A stretch of DNA of 4,447 nucleotides from a virus (IMGVR_UViG_2778261170_000007), one strand, 5' to 3'. Counted from the stretch's first letter, positions 1 through 4,447 are shown. Program-made: numbers and translations. Notes: generated by a model not told the origin, from the letters alone.

Positions 1-471
1 CCCGTTCCGTGGCCCTTAGAAACACCACCAACGGGCTGGCTAAAATGTAACGGAGCAGCATTTTCTTCTGAAAAGTATCCCAAACTGGCAAAAGCCTACC
101 CCACCAATAAATTACCGGATTTACGGGGAGAATTTATTCGCGGTTGGGATGATGGGCGCGGGGTGGATGCTGGCCGCGCTTTGCTTAATTGGCAGCCACA
201 CACAATTTTGGACCATGCACACTATATGGAATTATGGACAGGGGACGGACTCGCCGCAGGAAGTGCACGGGAAGGCGTAAATCCAGGAATACTAGCTACA
301 TACGGTGACGGGGGAATAGTTAAAACGGACGAACCCGGTCATAAGGTGCCTTCCTCACTACGAGCTATTAGCTCTCGTAGTGTTAAACGTTATGGTGAAA
401 TTAGTGGAAATGTAGGTACAGAAACTCGCCCTCGCAACGTTGCATTTAATTACATCGTAAGGGCGGCATAA
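1..471 (+). CDS. Tail-fiber tip / receptor-binding cassette A (tail-collar domain family), 5'-partial at window edge
   Basis: Frame 1 is open from nt 1 to TAA at 469-471. Translation PVPWPLETPPTGWLKCNGAAFSSEKYPKLAKAYPTNKLPDLRGEFIRGWDDGRGVDAGR...ETRPRNVAFNYIVRAA carries the tail-collar signature (P-x-GW-x-C-NG, LPDLRG-F-RG-D-GRG). HAH motif at 214-222. Nucleotide-identical in reverse complement to 3977-4447. Confidence 0.8.
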   Translation, partial: PVPWPLETPPTGWLKCNGAAFSSEKYPKLAKAYPTNKLPDLRGEFIRGWDDGRGVDAGRALLNWQPHTILDHAHYMELWTGDGLAAGSAREGVNPGILATYGDGGIVKTDEPGHKVPSSLRAISSRSVKRYGEISGNVGTETRPRNVAFNYIVRAA

Positions 472-483
472 AAACGTTGGTTT
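1..483. repeat. Left arm of a perfect >=483-bp inverted repeat (pairs with 3965-4447); truncated by the window edge
   Basis: Position x on the + strand equals the reverse complement of position 4448-x. Identity ends at 484 (g versus a), immediately after the conserved junction spacer. Confidence 0.85.
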
Positions 484-495
484 GGGGGAAGGCTC
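456..495 (+). repeat. Conserved 40-bp inter-cassette junction (candidate recombination/crossover site), A-B
   Basis: CGTAAGGGCGGCATAAAAACGTTGGTTTGGGGGAAGGCTC: last codons of one cassette, TAA, a 10-nt non-coding spacer AAACGTTGGT, and the first codons of the next. The identical 40-mer recurs at 3027-3066 and 3466-3505 on the minus strand. Confidence 0.5.
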
Positions 496-943
496 TGCAC
501 TGCCCGTTGGTGTGCCCGTTCCGTGGCCCTTAGAAACACCACCAACGGGCTGGCTAAAATGTAACGGAGCAGCATTTTCTTCTGAAAAGTACCCAAAACT
601 GGCAAAGGCTTACCCTACTAATAAATTGCCGGATTTACGCGGTGAATTTATTCGTGGCTGGGATGACGGACGTGGTGTGGATGCCGGGCGACAATTATTA
701 TCTTCACAGGGGGATGCAATAAGAAATATTGAGGGGTTCGCAGATGGCGGGATTGGCATGTCTTTTGATGCAATCAGAGGGGCTTTTTATGATGCAGGAA
801 CACGATCAGCGAGAATGCCGAATAACACAACTACTATAGACAAAACCGATGACCTTGGATTCGACGCCTCTCGTGTCGTGCCAACAGCTAATGAAAACCG
901 TCCTCGTAATATTGCCTTTAATTACATCGTAAGGGCGGCATAA
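482..943 (+). CDS. Tail-fiber tip / receptor-binding cassette B (tail-collar domain family)
   Basis: ORF with a TTG at the conserved module start (482) and TAA at 941-943. N-terminal block of subtype A (PLETPP, YPKLAKAYPTNK), a unique variable core with no HxH, and the conserved C-terminus ENRPRNIAFNYIVRAA. No ATG or convincing Shine-Dalgarno, so the true start is uncertain. Confidence 0.75.
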   Translation: MGEGSALPVGVPVPWPLETPPTGWLKCNGAAFSSEKYPKLAKAYPTNKLPDLRGEFIRGWDDGRGVDAGRQLLSSQGDAIRNIEGFADGGIGMSFDAIRGAFYDAGTRSARMPNNTTTIDKTDDLGFDASRVVPTANENRPRNIAFNYIVRAA

Positions 944-967
944 AAACGTTGGTTTAGGGGAAGGCTC
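928..967 (+). repeat. Conserved 40-bp inter-cassette junction, B-C (variant with TTA in place of TTG)
   Basis: Differs from the 456-495 junction by one substitution (TTG to TTA); identical to the minus-strand junction at 3953-3992. Confidence 0.5.
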
Positions 968-983
968 GGCGCTGCCCGTTGGC

Positions 984-1451
984 GTGCCTGTTCCATGGCC
1001 CTCAGCCACACCTCCAACGGGGTGGCTGAAATGCAATGGTGCAGCATTTTCTTCTGAAAAGTACCCAAATCTGGCAAAGGTTTACCCAACGTTAAAATTA
1101 CCTGATTTACGCGGTGAGTTTATCCGTGGTTGGGATGATGGGCGAGGGATTGACTCTGGTCGCTCTATTTTAAGCGAGCAAGGATATGCAACGGAGGATC
1201 ATGCTCACGGATTACCGTCAAAATCAACCGTAGCAACTGACCGCTCAATTAATTTCTACTTTGACGAGGCATGGGCTACTAGTGGTAATACGGGAGTTAT
1301 CAGATGGGGGAACACAAGCGATGCAGGATTGCCAGCCCCTAATTATGGAACTTTTAAAACATATAAACAGTCCGTAGCTAATTTAGGTACTGCTGGCTTA
1401 GAAACCCGCCCTCGTAATGTTGCATTTAATTATATTGTGAGGGCGGATTAA
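984..1451 (+). CDS. Tail-fiber tip / receptor-binding cassette C (tail-collar domain family); conserved module actually begins at 954
   Basis: The conserved module start codon is TTA at 954-956 (TTG in other cassettes); the first possible start is GTG at 984. The frame is open from 933. Subtype-B N-terminal block (PSATPP, YPNLAKVYPTLK), HAH motif at 1200-1208, C-terminus ETRPRNVAFNYIVRAD, TAA at 1449-1451. Confidence 0.7.
   Translation: MPVPWPSATPPTGWLKCNGAAFSSEKYPNLAKVYPTLKLPDLRGEFIRGWDDGRGIDSGRSILSEQGYATEDHAHGLPSKSTVATDRSINFYFDEAWATSGNTGVIRWGNTSDAGLPAPNYGTFKTYKQSVANLGTAGLETRPRNVAFNYIVRAD
987..1147. repeat. Left arm of a 161-bp perfect inverted repeat (pairs with 2333-2493) in the conserved 5' block of cassette C
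   Basis: 10-mer by 10-mer comparison of 987-1147 with the reverse complement of 2333-2493 shows identity, bounded by mismatches at 986 and 1148. Confidence 0.85.
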
Positions 1452-1456
1452 TTATA

Positions 1457-2068
1457 TCAACTGGCTGTAGAAAGTTGTTTTTCAGGCCAGTTGAGATCTG
1501 GTGCCGTGGTTAAATCCATCGCGTTCAGCTCGTCTATATAATCTAGCACGGAGTTAAGCTGCGTGGTTTCTGCCTGCGTCAACTTCCGTCCAGCCCGTAA
1601 TTTCAACTGAATCAGACTAATGGAATCCATCGCAGTATCAATCAATGACTGACGTTTTGTTTCTGCTGCCTCTACAGCTGCACTATGTTGAGCCTCAGTA
1701 TCAACCACCCATTTCTCTCCATCCCATTTGTCGTATGGTGTTAGCGGGGCGATAGTGGTTGTATTTTCCGGATAGTCACCCAACACCGTGATTTCTTCGG
1801 GATTCCCAGTGTCAATGCTATAGACAGTTTCGCCACGATGATCTGGCACATACTCCCATGAACTTAAATCCTCTGAACGGAGAATCGCATAACCTGCTTT
1901 ATGTGAGCCTGGAGCATCCAAACAAGAATTTGCCGGAATACCAACGCCAACAGCAAGATATTCAGTTGATGCAGAAATATATTCCCGATTACCACCATCA
2001 TAGTTATAAACGATAATGTTTCCTGCCTGTATGGCTATAAGTTCGCTATTTAATATCGCATTATCCAT
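1457..2068 (-). CDS. tfa: Phage tail fiber assembly protein (Tfa; Mu U / P2 G / lambda Tfa-like chaperone)
   Basis: 203-aa ORF with a canonical ATG at 2066-2068 and TGA at 1457-1459. The C-terminal region ...KWDGEKWVVDTEAQHSAAVEAAETKRQSLIDTAMDSISLIQLKLRAGRKLTQAETTQLNSVLDYIDELNAMDLTTAPDLNWPE matches, from memory, the conserved C-terminal domain of enterobacterial tail fiber assembly proteins (DTEA..., STAPDIEWP-like end). Its start overlaps the stop of the upstream cassette (TAATGG), indicating translational coupling. Confidence 0.85.
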   Translation of the reverse strand: MDNAILNSELIAIQAGNIIVYNYDGGNREYISASTEYLAVGVGIPANSCLDAPGSHKAGYAILRSEDLSSWEYVPDHRGETVYSIDTGNPEEITVLGDYPENTTTIAPLTPYDKWDGEKWVVDTEAQHSAAVEAAETKRQSLIDTAMDSISLIQLKLRAGRKLTQAETTQLNSVLDYIDELNAMDLTTAPDLNWPEKQLSTAS

Positions 2069-2526
2069 TATGCTGCTCTCACAATATAATTGAAGGCAAT
2101 GTTACGTGGGCGGGTTTCATTCCCCCCAGATAACTCCGTTCTGTATTGACTGGTAAATTTACCATTAATCGCTCCTTCTTGGACGGCGTTATCTGTCGAC
2201 AACAGACTATCCCCCCCTCTGTCATTTGGCACCAATACCGTGTTATCCCACGCGTCCCATGACCGAATATTATGATAATGACTTCCTGTTAACCACCCCT
2301 GTATGCTTAAGATGACCCTTCCCGCATCCACACCTCGCCCATCATCCCAACCACGGATAAACTCACCGCGTAAATCAGGTAATTTTAACGTTGGGTAAAC
2401 CTTTGCCAGATTTGGGTACTTTTCAGAAGAAAATGCTGCACCATTGCATTTCAGCCACCCCGTTGGAGGTGTGGCTGAGGGCCATGGAACAGGTACACCA
2501 ACGGGCAGCGCCGAGCCTTCTCCCAA
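2068..2526 (-). CDS. Tail-fiber tip / receptor-binding cassette D (tail-collar domain family), coupled to tfa
   Basis: TTG at 2524-2526, TAA at 2068-2070 overlapping the tfa ATG. Subtype-B N-terminal block, HYH motif at 2272-2280, C-terminus ETRPRNIAFNYIVRAA. Confidence 0.8.
   Translation of the reverse strand: MGEGSALPVGVPVPWPSATPPTGWLKCNGAAFSSEKYPNLAKVYPTLKLPDLRGEFIRGWDDGRGVDAGRVILSIQGWLTGSHYHNIRSWDAWDNTVLVPNDRGGDSLLSTDNAVQEGAINGKFTSQYRTELSGGNETRPRNIAFNYIVRAA
2333..2493. repeat. Right arm of the 161-bp perfect inverted repeat (pairs with 987-1147) in the conserved 5' block of cassette D
   Basis: See the left arm. Together the two arms bracket 1148-2332, which holds the cassette C variable core, tfa and the cassette D variable core. 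Confidence 0.85.
2341..2439. repeat. 99-bp perfect direct repeat, copy 1 (cassette D 5' block); copy 2 at 2865-2963
   Basis: 2341-2439 is identical to 2865-2963 (atcatcccaaccacggataaactcaccgcg...aaaatgctgc); flanking sequence is similar but has substitutions. Confidence 0.8.
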
Positions 2527-2552
2527 ACCAATGTTTTTATGCTGCCCTTACG
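2513..2552 (-). repeat. Conserved 40-bp inter-cassette junction, E-D (most divergent copy, 3 substitutions)
   Basis: Minus-strand sequence CGTAAGGGCAGCATAAAAACATTGGTTTGGGAGAAGGCTC. Confidence 0.45.
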
Positions 2553-3040
2553 ATGTAATTAAAAGCAACGTTGCGGGGGCGCATTGATATCCATGCCCCG
2601 GTAAAATTATCCTCTGCCGTCCTTTGAGTACCCGTTATGGAGTTATCTGCTGATGCTGGAACATAATCGCTATTATCTCCTGCTTTAGGATTAGCAGGGT
2701 TTCCAACAGTTATAACAGAATCAGCAGTAGCATAAGCGATACCTACTTTGACATTAGTAGTCAGATCGACACCGTAATAATCCTGCAAAGCTGTACGAAT
2801 AAATGTTGCAGTCTGACCACTTAGCAATGAACGCCCTGTATCAATCCCTCTCGAATCATCCCAACCACGGATAAACTCACCGCGTAAATCAGGTAATTTT
2901 AACGTTGGGTAAACCTTTGCCAGATTTGGGTACTTTTCAGAAGAAAATGCTGCTCCGTTACATTTCAGCCACCCCGTTGGCGGTGTGGCTGAGGGCCATG
3001 GAACAGGCACGCCAACGGGCAGCGCCGAGCCTTCCCCCAA
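2537..3040 (-). CDS. Tail-fiber tip / receptor-binding cassette E (tail-collar domain family)
   Basis: TTG at 3038-3040, TAA at 2537-2539. Subtype-B N-terminal block, the longest variable core (about 81 aa, no HxH), C-terminus MRPRNVAFNYIVRAA. Confidence 0.75.
   Translation of the reverse strand: MGEGSALPVGVPVPWPSATPPTGWLKCNGAAFSSEKYPNLAKVYPTLKLPDLRGEFIRGWDDSRGIDTGRSLLSGQTATFIRTALQDYYGVDLTTNVKVGIAYATADSVITVGNPANPKAGDNSDYVPASADNSITGTQRTAEDNFTGAWISMRPRNVAFNYIVRAA
2865..2963. repeat. 99-bp perfect direct repeat, copy 2 (cassette E 5' block)
   Basis: Identical to 2341-2439. Confidence 0.8.
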
Positions 3041-3066
3041 ACCAACGTTTTTATGCCGCCCTTACG
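3027..3066 (-). repeat. Conserved 40-bp inter-cassette junction, F-E
   Basis: Minus-strand sequence identical to the 456-495 junction. Confidence 0.5.
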
Positions 3067-3479
3067 ATATAATTAAACGCAATGTTACGAGGACGAATGG
3101 TTACATAATTAACCCCATCACCTCGTGAAGGCCCTGCAAATGAAAAACGGGAAAATCCTGGTTGGTTAGAAACAATTTGGTCATAGTTATTGATTGAATG
3201 ACCAGACCCAATGTCGAAATTACCTCCGTAATGAGAAAAACTTGTACCATCCTGCCCTGAAAGCAGGGTACGTCCCGCATCAATCCCGCGCCCATCATCC
3301 CAGCCACGGATAAATTCACCGCGTAAATCCGGTAATTTATTGGTGGGGTAGGCTTTTGCCAGTTTGGGATACATTTCAGAAGAAAATGCTGCACCATTGC
3401 ATTTTAGCCAGCCAGTTGGTGGTGTTTCTAAGGGCCACGGAACGGGCACACCAACAGGCAATGCAGAGCCTTCCCCCAA
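3051..3479 (-). CDS. Tail-fiber tip / receptor-binding cassette F (tail-collar domain family)
   Basis: TTG at 3477-3479, TAA at 3051-3053. Subtype-A N-terminal block (PLETPP, EMYPKLAKAYPTNK), the shortest variable core (about 56 aa), C-terminus IRPRNIAFNYIVRAA. Confidence 0.75.
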   Translation of the reverse strand: MGEGSALPVGVPVPWPLETPPTGWLKCNGAAFSSEMYPKLAKAYPTNKLPDLRGEFIRGWDDGRGIDAGRTLLSGQDGTSFSHYGGNFDIGSGHSINNYDQIVSNQPGFSRFSFAGPSRGDGVNYVTIRPRNIAFNYIVRAA

Positions 3480-3505
3480 ACCAACGTTTTTATGCCGCCC
3501 TTACG
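3466..3505 (-). repeat. Conserved 40-bp inter-cassette junction, G-F
   Basis: Minus-strand sequence identical to the 456-495 junction. Confidence 0.5.
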
Positions 3506-3948
3506 ATGTAATTAAATGCGATATTTCGTGGACGGGTTTCACTCCCGCCAGTATTACCAATACTCCCTCGAGAATGAAGTGTCGGTGATGGAATCAAATT
3601 CCCTCCTGTATTTGAGGCATCAAGCCCCCGTCCTTGTGTGTATGTTTTTTTGAAAATTGTCGCCAGCTCCCATTCATCTTTTGTGTCGTAACCATCATTG
3701 GCTACAACAATATGTCGGTGCTTTTCCAGCATTCCTGTCTGAATGCTCAATAAAGCACGTCCCGCATCCACCCCGCGCCCATCATCCCAGCCGCGAATAA
3801 ATTCTCCCCGTAAATCCGGTAATTTATTGGTGGGATAAGCCTTTGCCAGTTTTGGGTACTTTTCAGAAGAAAATGCTGCTCCGTTGCATTTTAGCCAGCC
3901 TGTTGGCGGAGTGGCTGAGGGCCACGGAACAGGTACGCCAACAGGCAA
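3490..3948 (-). CDS. Tail-fiber tip / receptor-binding cassette G (tail-collar domain family); conserved module extends to 3966
   Basis: The conserved module start is TTA at 3964-3966; the first possible start is TTG at 3946-3948. TAA at 3490-3492. Chimeric N-terminal block (PSATPP of subtype B followed by YPKLAKAYPTNK of subtype A), HRH motif at 3712-3720, C-terminus ETRPRNIAFNYIVRAA. Confidence 0.7.
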   Translation of the reverse strand: MPVGVPVPWPSATPPTGWLKCNGAAFSSEKYPKLAKAYPTNKLPDLRGEFIRGWDDGRGVDAGRALLSIQTGMLEKHRHIVVANDGYDTKDEWELATIFKKTYTQGRGLDASNTGGNLIPSPTLHSRGSIGNTGGSETRPRNIAFNYIVRAA

Positions 3949-3952
3949 TGCT

Positions 3953-3992
3953 GAGCCTTCCCCTAAACCAACGTTTTTATGCCGCCCTTACG
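3953..3992 (-). repeat. Conserved 40-bp inter-cassette junction, A'-G (TTA variant)
   Basis: Minus-strand sequence identical to the 928-967 junction. Confidence 0.5.
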
Positions 3993-4447
3993 ATGTAATT
4001 AAATGCAACGTTGCGAGGGCGAGTTTCTGTACCTACATTTCCACTAATTTCACCATAACGTTTAACACTACGAGAGCTAATAGCTCGTAGTGAGGAAGGC
4101 ACCTTATGACCGGGTTCGTCCGTTTTAACTATTCCCCCGTCACCGTATGTAGCTAGTATTCCTGGATTTACGCCTTCCCGTGCACTTCCTGCGGCGAGTC
4201 CGTCCCCTGTCCATAATTCCATATAGTGTGCATGGTCCAAAATTGTGTGTGGCTGCCAATTAAGCAAAGCGCGGCCAGCATCCACCCCGCGCCCATCATC
4301 CCAACCGCGAATAAATTCTCCCCGTAAATCCGGTAATTTATTGGTGGGGTAGGCTTTTGCCAGTTTGGGATACTTTTCAGAAGAAAATGCTGCTCCGTTA
4401 CATTTTAGCCAGCCCGTTGGTGGTGTTTCTAAGGGCCACGGAACGGG
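3965..4447. repeat. Right arm of the perfect >=483-bp inverted repeat (pairs with 1-483)
   Basis: Reverse complement matches 1-483 on the blocks checked; the arm runs to the window edge and so probably continues beyond it. Confidence 0.85.
3977..4447 (-). CDS. Tail-fiber tip / receptor-binding cassette A' (inverted identical copy of cassette A), 5'-partial at window edge
   Basis: The minus-strand frame is open to the window end, with TAA at 3977-3979. The reverse complement of 3965-4447 equals 1-483; this was checked on 1-180, 177-246, 241-300, 308-427 and the 3' junction. Confidence 0.8.
   Translation of the reverse strand, partial: PVPWPLETPPTGWLKCNGAAFSSEKYPKLAKAYPTNKLPDLRGEFIRGWDDGRGVDAGRALLNWQPHTILDHAHYMELWTGDGLAAGSAREGVNPGILATYGDGGIVKTDEPGHKVPSSLRAISSRSVKRYGEISGNVGTETRPRNVAFNYIVRAA

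What the first reader, a model, noticed from the sequence alone, without database searches (positions are those of the whole stretch)
482..3966. Internal cassettes lack canonical start codons and ribosome-binding sites; the module 'start' alternates TTG/TTA
Only tfa starts with ATG. Each cassette begins at a conserved TTG (482, 2526, 3040, 3479) with no purine-rich Shine-Dalgarno 5-10 nt upstream, and in two cassettes that codon is TTA (954, 3966), which cannot initiate. A synonymous Leu change at this position suggests it is read as an internal codon in some configuration. Yet in every cassette the frame is closed by a TAA only 7 codons upstream, inside the previous cassette's last codons. 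The cassettes therefore look like silent donor modules, or are expressed by an unusual route such as termination-reinitiation.
Basis: partly seen in the sequence, partly recalled or inferred. Interest (0 to 1): 0.55.

Follow-up and report, generated by a model that had tools for sequence, protein, structure and literature searches.

The report
Invertible tail-fibre tip cassettes (Min-type)

Summary
Six junctions carry the same sequence (AAAACGTT|GGTTT(G/A)GGGGAAGG), each cassette opens with TTG or TTA, none has a Shine-Dalgarno in range, and only tfa has an ATG.

The explanation is a known one. Each junction is a 26-bp crossover site of a Gin/Cin/Min-type serine DNA invertase: 12-nt half-site, TT core, 12-nt half-site. 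The TTG/TTA lies in the right half-site.

- In related complete P1-like (IncY) plasmids, the same site sits inside an ~820-875-aa tail-fibre gene that reads ...NYLG-L-GEGSALPVG..., so TTG/TTA is an internal leucine codon.
- A 190-aa serine recombinase gene flanks the cassette array in those plasmids.
- All seven cassette types of the window occur fused in frame to the constant part in some natural sequence, including a TTA cassette.
- Homology between near-identical plasmids breaks exactly at the TT core.
- In the multi-site loci examined, all sites face a single central tfa gene, as inversion-only recombination requires.

The cassettes are therefore silent, promoter-less and start-less 3' gene segments, activated by inversion. 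Termination-reinitiation is not needed and fits TTA poorly.

The window itself is probably a short-read contig: both ends stop at an exact 77-mer repeat, and the duplicated end cassette may be an assembly walk.

Novelty: already known. Interest: low.

The parts
1..471 (+). Cassette X, missing about 36 nt at its 5' end: alternative tail-fibre C-terminus ending ...NYIVRAA*.
   Evidence: The ORF runs off the window start. The same cassette is fused to the constant fibre part in L001 and L039. Positions 1-483 are a perfect reverse complement of 3965-4447.
465..490 (+). 26-bp crossover site GGCATAAAAACG-TT-GGTTTGGGGGAA, with the core TT at 477-478. It spans the stop codon of X and the TTG of B.
   Evidence: It matches the sites tabulated for the EC958 Phi2 prophage and the Mu/P1/e14/p15B consensus in PMC4134206.
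482..943 (+). Cassette B, first codon TTG: Phage Tail Collar domain followed by a variable tip.
   Evidence: Pfam PF07484, E = 2.4e-15. Fused to the constant part in L007.
937..962 (+). 26-bp crossover site, core TT at 949-950, right half GGTTTAGGGGAA (carries the TTA).
954..1451 (+). Cassette C, first codon TTA. It converges on tfa and has no site at its 3' end.
   Evidence: Pfam Collar. Fused in frame, with its TTA read as Leu, in the 816-aa tail fibre of NZ_LR890200.1; 166 of 167 positions identical.
1457..2068 (-). tfa, the tail-fibre assembly chaperone gene. It is the only ATG gene, and its start overlaps the stop of D (TAATG). It sits at the convergence point of the two cassette arms.
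   Evidence: Pfam PF02413 Caudo_TAP, E = 3e-30. One copy in each of the 14 checked loci that had a tfa match, and directly after D in the P1-like loci that carry the window's cassettes.
2068..2526 (-). Cassette D, first codon TTG, translationally coupled to tfa.
   Evidence: Pfam Collar. Fused to the constant part in L005 and L026.
2518..2543 (-). 26-bp crossover site, core at 2530-2531. Variant sequence AGCATAAAAACA-TT-GGTTTGGGAGAA.
   Evidence: The 99.4% homology to NZ_CP100532.1 ends exactly at 2531.
2537..3040 (-). Cassette E, first codon TTG.
   Evidence: Pfam Collar. Fused in L012 (there with TTA) and in L027.
3032..3057 (-). 26-bp crossover site, core at 3044-3045.
3051..3479 (-). Cassette F, first codon TTG.
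   Evidence: Pfam Collar. Fused in L022 and L048.
3471..3496 (-). 26-bp crossover site, core at 3483-3484.
3490..3966 (-). Cassette G, first codon TTA.
   Evidence: Pfam Collar. Fused in L019 and L042.
3958..3983 (-). 26-bp crossover site, core at 3970-3971, right half GGTTTAGGGGAA.
3977..4447 (-). Second, inverted copy of cassette X, truncated at the window end.
   Evidence: Perfect reverse complement of 1-471. It may be a true duplicate or an assembly walk.

Best explanation
The window is the invertible part of a multiple-inversion tail-fibre switch: the Min system of plasmid p15B, a many-cassette relative of P1 Cin and Mu Gin. It is carried by a P1-like (IncY) phage-plasmid of Enterobacteriaceae.

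How it works:
- Each cassette encodes an alternative C-terminal receptor-binding end of one tail-fibre protein (a collar domain plus a variable tip). No cassette has a promoter, ribosome-binding site or start codon of its own.
- The conserved junction in front of every cassette is a 26-bp crossover site for a ~190-aa serine DNA invertase. That gene lies just outside the window, at the outer end of one cassette arm. The constant 5' part of the fibre gene (~650-700 codons) lies at the outer end of the other arm and ends in the same kind of site.
- Strand exchange at the TT core between two oppositely oriented sites inverts everything between them. This exchanges the inner parts of the two arms, so any cassette can be brought next to the constant part.
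- There the frame runs ...Asn-Tyr-Leu-Gly-Leu(TTG/TTA)-Gly-Glu-Gly..., so the 'start' codon is an internal leucine codon. All other cassettes stay silent.
- In a silent cassette, the left half-site is supplied by the last codons, stop codon and spacer of the preceding cassette. That is why the frame is closed a few codons upstream.

Shown here: the sites, the frames, the domain content, the in-frame fusions, the breakpoints at the core, and the convergent-arm invariant in natural sequences.

Inferred: that inversion is active in the source organism, and that it depends on Fis and an enhancer as in Gin, Hin and Cin.
For: 1. Six sites share a 12-2-12 architecture, 2 on the + strand and 4 on the - strand, against 0.00 expected by chance. 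They are nearly identical to crossover sites published for an E. coli prophage in which inversion was seen in PacBio reads (GAGAGATAAACGTT GGTTTGGGGGAA and TCCTCAATTACCTT GGTTTAGGAGAA). They fit the Mu/P1/e14/p15B consensus (PMC4134206).
2. In NZ_AP022163.1 the 874-aa fibre gene reads through the site as ...SVLNYLGLGEGSALPVGVPVPWP... into cassette X. In NZ_LR890200.1 an 816-aa fibre reads through TTA into cassette C.
3. All 7 cassette types of the window occur both silent and fused in frame to an upstream ORF of at least 150 codons. Six of them were found fused among the first 87 loci fetched. C was found only by a targeted search of the plasmid collection. In the first set, fused sites carry TTG 25 times and TTA 3 times.
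4. A Resolvase + HTH_7 recombinase of 190 aa adjoins the array in L001, L005, L006, L007 and L087. It matches the Gin structures 4m6f and 3uj3 at E = 4e-92, and is 75% identical to the invertase of P1-like phage D6, where a cixL site is annotated.
5. The window is 99.4% identical to NZ_CP100532.1 over 1-2531, and the homology stops at the TT core of D's site. Beyond it that plasmid continues into the constant part.
6. In all 24 loci that hold sites on both strands, every + site precedes every - site, with tfa at the centre. This arrangement is preserved only by inversions between inverted sites.
7. A tail-swap model of this layout gives exactly 240 isomers for six sites, the published figure for p15B Min (PMC2481393).
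8. pMCR_SCKP-LL83 has an invertible segment published as 99% identical to p15B min. It carries all seven cassette types of the window at 93-97.5% nucleotide identity (PMC5786510).
9. There is no SD in range and no excess of promoter- or terminator-like sites.
Against: - Neither the invertase gene nor the constant fibre part is inside the window, so their presence in the source molecule is inferred from close relatives.
- No read-level evidence of inversion is available for this sequence.
- The window's arrangement, with cassette X at both ends, was not found as such in any complete plasmid. It may be partly an assembly construct.
- The Fis enhancer was not examined.
Confidence: 0.93

Rival explanations
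1. The cassettes are ordinary, independently translated small genes ('phage tail protein', as automatic annotation calls them). They would start at the TTG, or at a downstream GTG/TTG in the TTA cassettes.
For: RefSeq annotation lists them as separate CDSs of 142-167 aa. TTG can initiate in bacteria. In-frame GTG (984) and TTG (3948) exist downstream of the two TTA codons.
Against: - There is no SD within 5-10 nt.
- TTA sits at the same position in 2 of 6 cassettes here and in 26 of the 89 standard silent junctions (the class with the same upstream stop as in the window) in related loci.
- Every cassette type is also found as the in-frame C-terminus of a long fibre.
- The published EC958 analysis notes that gene callers mislabel these start-less 3' fragments (as repeat-domain proteins), which bears on how far the automatic CDS calls can be trusted (PMC4134206).
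- A collar domain without the fibre shaft has no evident way to join a virion. This last point is an inference.
Confidence: 0.03
2. Cassettes lying downstream of the expressed fibre gene in the same orientation are translated by termination-reinitiation at the TAA-N10-TTG junction. This would yield free tip fragments. It is the reader's second option.
For: In some isomers silent cassettes follow the expressed one head to tail, only 10 nt after its stop (L001, L087). TTG is a possible restart codon.
Against: - It is impossible for TTA cassettes.
- No SD-like element sits near the stop.
- The 10-nt spacer and flanks are fully accounted for by the recombinase half-site and core.
- It cannot apply to cassettes on the opposite strand, which here are 4 of the 6 complete cassettes.
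- It is not excluded by sequence alone for TTG cassettes on the sense arm.
Confidence: 0.03
3. The cassettes are donors for RecA-dependent homologous recombination or gene conversion, as with pilin or VSG-style silent copies. They would use the ~190-290-nt conserved flanks rather than site-specific inversion.
For: Cassettes share 79-93% identical stretches of 170-290 nt, long enough for homologous recombination.
Against: - The breakpoint with NZ_CP100532.1 lies exactly at the 2-bp core, not within the homology.
- A dedicated serine invertase is always adjacent in the relatives examined.
- The convergent-arm order holds in every locus that has sites on both strands.
- Cassettes move reciprocally rather than being copied. 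The repertoire stays at one copy each in most plasmids: 75 of the 84 records with cassette X hold a single copy.
Confidence: 0.02

Closest known systems
Min multiple DNA inversion system of plasmid p15B (E. coli 15T-; Sandmeier, Iida, Arber 1990-1992)
   Same: - P1-related IncY phage-plasmid context.
- A serine invertase next to a cluster of overlapping invertible segments.
- Crossover sites inside the coding sequence.
- One constant 5' fibre part joined to alternative 3' ends.
- The layout reproduces the published 240 isomers for six sites.
- A plasmid whose segment is published as 99% identical to p15B min carries all seven of the window's cassette types.
   Different: p15B was described with six sites. 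The window shows six internal sites and implies at least one more at each end, giving seven distinct cassette types and about 1,440 isomers. Relatives range from 4 to 9 or more sites. The p15B sequence itself (X62121) was not available for direct alignment.
Cin / C-segment of phage P1 and Gin / G-segment of phage Mu
   Same: - The same recombinase family: the neighbouring invertase matches the Gin crystal structures at E = 4e-92.
- The same logic: a constant fibre 5' part fused to one of several variable 3' parts by inversion at 26-bp sites with a 2-bp core.
   Different: P1 and Mu have two sites, two alternatives, and a tfa-type gene (U, U') for each alternative (from established knowledge). 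Here there are many sites and only one tfa, attached to cassette D.
Invertible tail-fibre region of E. coli EC958 prophage Phi2 (Forde et al. 2014, PMC4134206)
   Same: - Almost identical crossover sites.
- The same Phage_fibre_2 repeats plus Tail Collar fusion architecture.
- Inversion was observed directly there in long reads.
   Different: That system has a single invertible segment with two alternatives, in a chromosomal prophage.
R64 / IncI shufflon (Rci, pilV)
   Same: It works alike: multiple inversions place alternative 3' segments behind one constant 5' gene part (PMC2481393).
   Different: Rci is a tyrosine recombinase. Its sites (sfx) and its target (a pilus adhesin) are unrelated. 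This window is not a member of that family.

Membership tests
Din-family serine DNA invertase systems (Gin/Cin/Hin/Pin/Min) | 26-bp crossover sites: two imperfectly symmetric 12-bp half-sites around a 2-bp core. | tested here: met
   There are six sites of the form GGCATAAAAACG-TT-GGTTT(G/A)GGGGAA. They agree with the published sites and consensus (PMC4134206). The right half is near consensus; the left half matches mainly in its AAAC(G/C) part.
Din-family serine DNA invertase systems (Gin/Cin/Hin/Pin/Min) | Recombining sites lie in inverted orientation, so that the outcome is inversion. | tested here: met
   Two sites lie on the + strand (477, 949) and four on the - strand (2530, 3044, 3483, 3970), facing each other. 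The same convergent layout holds in all 24 related loci that have sites on both strands.
Din-family serine DNA invertase systems (Gin/Cin/Hin/Pin/Min) | An adjacent ~190-aa serine recombinase with an N-terminal catalytic domain and a C-terminal HTH. | tested here: inconclusive
   The gene is not inside the window. It is present directly beside the same cassettes in L001, L005, L006, L007 and L087: PF00239 at E = 2e-51, PF02796 at E = 3e-15, and Gin structures at E = 4e-92.
Din-family serine DNA invertase systems (Gin/Cin/Hin/Pin/Min) | A Fis-dependent recombinational enhancer (sis) in the 5' part of the invertase gene. | not tested
   It would lie outside the window. Fis sites are too degenerate for a meaningful sequence test with these tools.
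Din-family serine DNA invertase systems (Gin/Cin/Hin/Pin/Min) | Inversion actually occurs, with exchange at the core dinucleotide. | tested here: met
   The evidence is comparative only. Homology to NZ_CP100532.1 ends at the core. The same cassettes appear in different orders and orientations and fused to the constant part across plasmids. No reads from the source were available.
p15B Min-type multiple-inversion tail-fibre region | More than two crossover sites, giving overlapping invertible segments, with one constant 5' fibre part and several alternative 3' ends. | tested here: met
   The window holds six sites and seven cassette types. In-frame fusions were found for all seven types. The tail-swap model reproduces 240 isomers for six sites.
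p15B Min-type multiple-inversion tail-fibre region | Sequence identity to the p15B min region (X62121). | not testable with these tools
   X62121 is not in the collections. As a proxy, pMCR_SCKP-LL83 is reported as 99% identical to p15B min over 92% coverage (PMC5786510). It shares all seven cassette types with the window at 93-97.5% nucleotide identity.
R64-type shufflon (Rci tyrosine recombinase) | A tyrosine recombinase acting at sfx sites. | tested here: not met
   The neighbouring recombinase in relatives is a serine resolvase/invertase, and the sites are of the gix/cix type.

The most novel reading that the evidence does not exclude
On the sense arm, TTG cassettes that follow the expressed fibre gene head to tail might be translated at a low level by reinitiation after the upstream TAA. 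This would produce free collar-domain tip fragments. Separately, because the single tfa is antisense to the fibre gene in half of all isomers, the chaperone may serve only cassette D, and the other tips may fold without it. Neither idea is excluded by the sequence evidence.
Probability: 0.04. Interest if true: 0.4.

Novelty: already known. Interest (0 to 1): 0.1.

Why it matters
The finding mainly matters for annotation and assembly.

- Annotation: these 3' gene fragments are routinely annotated as independent 'phage tail protein' genes.
- Assembly: the invertible region breaks or scrambles short-read assemblies of P1-like phage-plasmids, many of which carry resistance genes such as mcr-1 and ESBL genes.

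Biologically, it is a host-range diversification device. Seven cassettes can give about 1,440 DNA isomers and seven fibre tips from one gene. The principle has been established since about 1990.

Tried and rejected
- Source of the window: I looked for an exact match to the X'/G junction. There were 0 hits in genome contigs and 3 IMG/VR contigs, none of which is the window's source. No plasmid, phage or complete E. coli genome record holds 80% or more of the window in one arrangement.
- Primary literature: I tried to read the p15B papers (PMC329034, PMC206102, PMC53420), the P1 genome paper (PMC523184) and Johnson's 2015 review. None is held. The p15B facts therefore rest on secondary citations and on my own recollection.
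- Independent translation: I looked for an SD and found only AGGGCGG 14 nt upstream, outside the usual spacing.
- Cassette-specific promoters or terminators: 11 promoter-like sites against 7.4 +/- 3.3 expected, and 2 terminator-like sites against 5.4 +/- 2.3 expected, so no excess.
- Is cassette C never expressed? It was silent in all 10 copies of my first sample. A targeted chimeric query rejected the idea: contiguous const-C fusions exist in at least four plasmids.


Full report
**1. What is in the window**

The 4,447 bases hold a series of homologous cassettes of about 430-500 nt.
- Plus strand: X (1-471, 5' end missing), B (482-943) and C (954-1451).
- Minus strand: tfa (1457-2068), D (2068-2526), E (2537-3040), F (3051-3479), G (3490-3966) and a second copy of X (3977-4447, 5' end missing).

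Each cassette translates into a Phage Tail Collar domain (PF07484, E about 1e-15), then a variable stretch of about 55-80 residues, then a conserved end ...RPRN(I/V)AFNYIVRAA*. The tfa product is a Caudo_TAP tail-fibre assembly protein (E = 3e-30).

**2.

- The 22-nt junction AAAACGTTGGTTTRGGGGAAGG occurs six times, against 0.00 expected in shuffles.
- The first cassette codon is TTG at 482, 2526, 3040 and 3479, and TTA at 954 and 3966.
- The frame is closed by a TAA with seven codons between it and the TTG/TTA. The preceding cassette's own stop lies 10 nt before it.
- The only anti-SD-like stretch (AGGGCGG) ends 14 nt upstream, outside the functional spacing.
- Only tfa has an ATG, and it overlaps D's stop as TAATG.
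- Promoter-like and terminator-like matches are not enriched.

**3. What the junction is**

Read as GGCATAAAAACG-TT-GGTTT(G/A)GGGGAA, each junction is a 26-bp site: two 12-nt halves around a TT core.

Forde et al. (PMC4134206) tabulate the crossover sites of an invertible tail-fibre segment in E. coli EC958 prophage Phi2. These are TCCTCAATTACCTT GGTTTAGGAGAA and GAGAGATAAACGTT GGTTTGGGGGAA. They were observed to invert in PacBio reads, and the paper gives the consensus of the Mu, P1, e14, p15B and Shigella boydii sites alongside them. The window's sites are essentially the same.

The same paper describes the gene as a fusion of a stable 5' part with Phage_fibre_2 repeats to an invertible 3' part with a Tail Collar domain. 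I find that same architecture in the related loci described next.

**4. Context from relatives**

The window matches 219 plasmid records. Most are non-mobilizable plasmids of Escherichia, and the best-matching ones listed are about 92-102 kb. In the three whose typing I read, the replicon is IncY, that is, P1-like phage-plasmids.

In NZ_AP022163.1 (L001) the order is as follows:
- baseplate and tail genes;
- an 874-aa tail-fibre gene;
- one more cassette on the same strand;
- tfa and five cassettes on the other strand;
- a 190-aa recombinase gene.

The fibre gene reads ...SIQSVLNYLGLGEGSALPVGVPVPWPLETPP... straight through a site whose left half is TTCTTAATTACC and whose right half is the cassette's own GGTTTGGGGGAA. 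The 'start' TTG is therefore the second Leu of LGLGEG.

The recombinase has Resolvase and HTH_7 domains. It matches the crystal structures of the Mu Gin invertase (4m6f, 3uj3) at E = 4e-92. It is 75% identical to the invertase of P1-like phage D6, where a cixL site is annotated.

**5. Tests of the shuffling model**

(a) Fusions. I fetched 80 IMG/VR loci around close relatives of the invertase, plus several plasmids, and catalogued 183 sites.
- Cassette types B, D, E, F, G and X each occur both silent and fused in frame to an upstream ORF of at least 150 codons.
- C was silent in all ten copies. A chimeric query (constant part + C) then found contiguous fusions in at least four plasmids.
- In NZ_LR890200.1, an 816-aa fibre reads ...SVLDYLG-L(TTA)-GEGS... 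into a C cassette that is 166/167 identical to the window's.
- Among fused sites in the first set, 25 carry TTG and 3 carry TTA.

(b) Breakpoint. The window is 99.4% identical to NZ_CP100532.1 over 1-2531, and the match stops at the TT core of D's site (2530-2531). Beyond it that plasmid continues into the constant part, whereas the window continues into the end of E.

(c) Orientation. In all 24 loci that hold sites on both strands, all + sites precede all - sites, with tfa at the convergence point. This layout is invariant under inversion between oppositely oriented sites. Other rearrangements would not maintain it.

(d) Isomer count. If each inversion is modelled as an exchange of the inner parts of the two arms, six sites give exactly 240 arrangements. 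That is the figure cited for p15B Min (PMC2481393). Seven sites give 1,440 and nine give 80,640.

(e) Link to p15B. pMCR_SCKP-LL83 has an invertible segment published as 99% identical to p15B min (PMC5786510). It has nine sites and nine cassettes, including all seven types of the window at 93-97.5% nucleotide identity.

**6. Mechanism**

Partly shown, partly inferred.
- Shown: the sites, frames, fusions, breakpoint and layout described above.
- From established knowledge of Gin, Hin and Cin: the invertase dimers bound at two inverted sites cleave at the 2-bp core and exchange strands within a Fis/enhancer-dependent synaptic complex. The asymmetric TT core fixes the polarity.
- Consequence: the cassette keeps its own right half-site, and therefore its TTG or TTA, wherever it goes. 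The left half comes from whatever lies upstream: the constant part (..ATTACC), the previous cassette's stop region (..CATAAAAACG) or the invertase-proximal flank (..GACTAAAACG).

- There is no start and no SD because none is needed.
- G or A is tolerated at that position both by the leucine codon and, judging by the EC958 Phi2 sites that recombine, by the recombinase.
- The upstream stop is simply the end of the neighbouring silent cassette.

**7. Rivals**

- Independent genes. This is contradicted by TTA, the missing SD and the fusions.
- Termination-reinitiation. It is impossible for TTA cassettes and for cassettes on the opposite strand, and there is nothing left for it to explain. It cannot be excluded by sequence for TTG cassettes on the sense arm.
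- RecA-type conversion. This is contradicted by the breakpoint at the core, the dedicated invertase, and the mostly single-copy cassette repertoire.

**8. Comparison with what is known, and novelty**

This is the Min-type multiple inversion system, described for p15B in 1990-1992 and summarised in PMC6109161. It is a many-site version of P1 Cin and Mu Gin. It works like the R64 shufflon but uses a serine rather than a tyrosine recombinase.

The differences from the p15B description are of degree only: seven cassette types here, and 4 to 9 or more sites in relatives. Novelty is therefore 'already known' and interest is low.

**9. Caveats**

- The invertase gene and the constant part are outside the window.
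- No reads from the source were available, so activity in the source is inferred.
- The window may not be a faithful molecule (see section 10).

**10. Side observations**

- Window structure. The window's first 77 nt recur exactly at 515-591 (77 but not 78 nt), and the last 77 nt are their reverse complement. Positions 1-483 and 3965-4447 are perfectly complementary. This is the signature of a k = 77 de Bruijn contig that ends at a repeat. The path X-[B...G']-X' is what an assembler would produce from a mixture of two isomers that differ by inversion of B...G'. Most complete plasmids carry X once: 75 of 84 records. Some assemblies show evident duplications of this region, for example NZ_LR882977.1 with the recombinase gene twice.
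- The single tfa. There is one tfa per locus. In the P1-like loci that carry the window's cassettes it directly follows D. It faces C in the window and its closest relatives, and G in some other loci, with no site in between. D-tfa and the facing cassette are therefore an indivisible central unit, and tfa is antisense to the fibre gene in half of the isomers (for example L001 and L088).

Noticed in passing
window 1-77, 515-591, 4371-4447; 1-483 versus 3965-4447: Both window ends stop at an exact 77-mer that recurs inside the window (77 nt match, 78 do not). The terminal 483 nt are perfect reverse complements. This looks like a k = 77 de Bruijn contig. The duplicated cassette X may be a graph walk through two inversion isomers rather than a real second copy.
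   Followed up: partly
window 954-2526 (C, tfa, D); L001, L005, L087, L088: There is one tfa per locus. In the P1-like loci with the window's cassettes it directly follows D (overlapping TAATG). It is faced by another cassette (C here, G in some loci) only 5 nt from its stop, with no crossover site in between. This central unit flips at every inversion, so tfa is antisense to the fibre gene in half of all isomers. How, or whether, the other tips get a chaperone is unexplained.
   Followed up: partly
L006 (NZ_LR882977.1, record 22000-36000): This 'complete' plasmid has 13 sites and the recombinase gene twice, about 3.8 kb apart. It probably reflects an assembly duplication caused by inversion heterogeneity, of the kind Forde et al. 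(PMC4134206) warned about.
   Followed up: no
L088 (NZ_LR890200.1), locus 7367-8418: IS26 has truncated cassette D and replaced the rest of the minus arm. The invertase gene was not seen in the stretch examined. This would freeze the plasmid in the const-C state, with tfa antisense.
   Followed up: no
window 356-382 and 4066-4092: A 27-nt near-palindrome (CACTACGAGCTATTAGCTCTCGTAGTG) lies inside the coding sequence of cassette X. It is not followed by a T-run, and its significance is unknown.
   Followed up: no
L001 3888-6512 (constant part of the fibre gene): The constant part consists of ten Phage_fiber_2 repeats arranged in long, near-identical tandem blocks. Its length varies between plasmids (816-874 aa fibres), so repeat number seems to vary as well.
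   Followed up: no
L004 10852-12400 (IMGVR_UViG_2724679172_000005): Two X-type cassettes lie head to tail on one strand, so real or assembled duplications of X do occur elsewhere.
   Followed up: no
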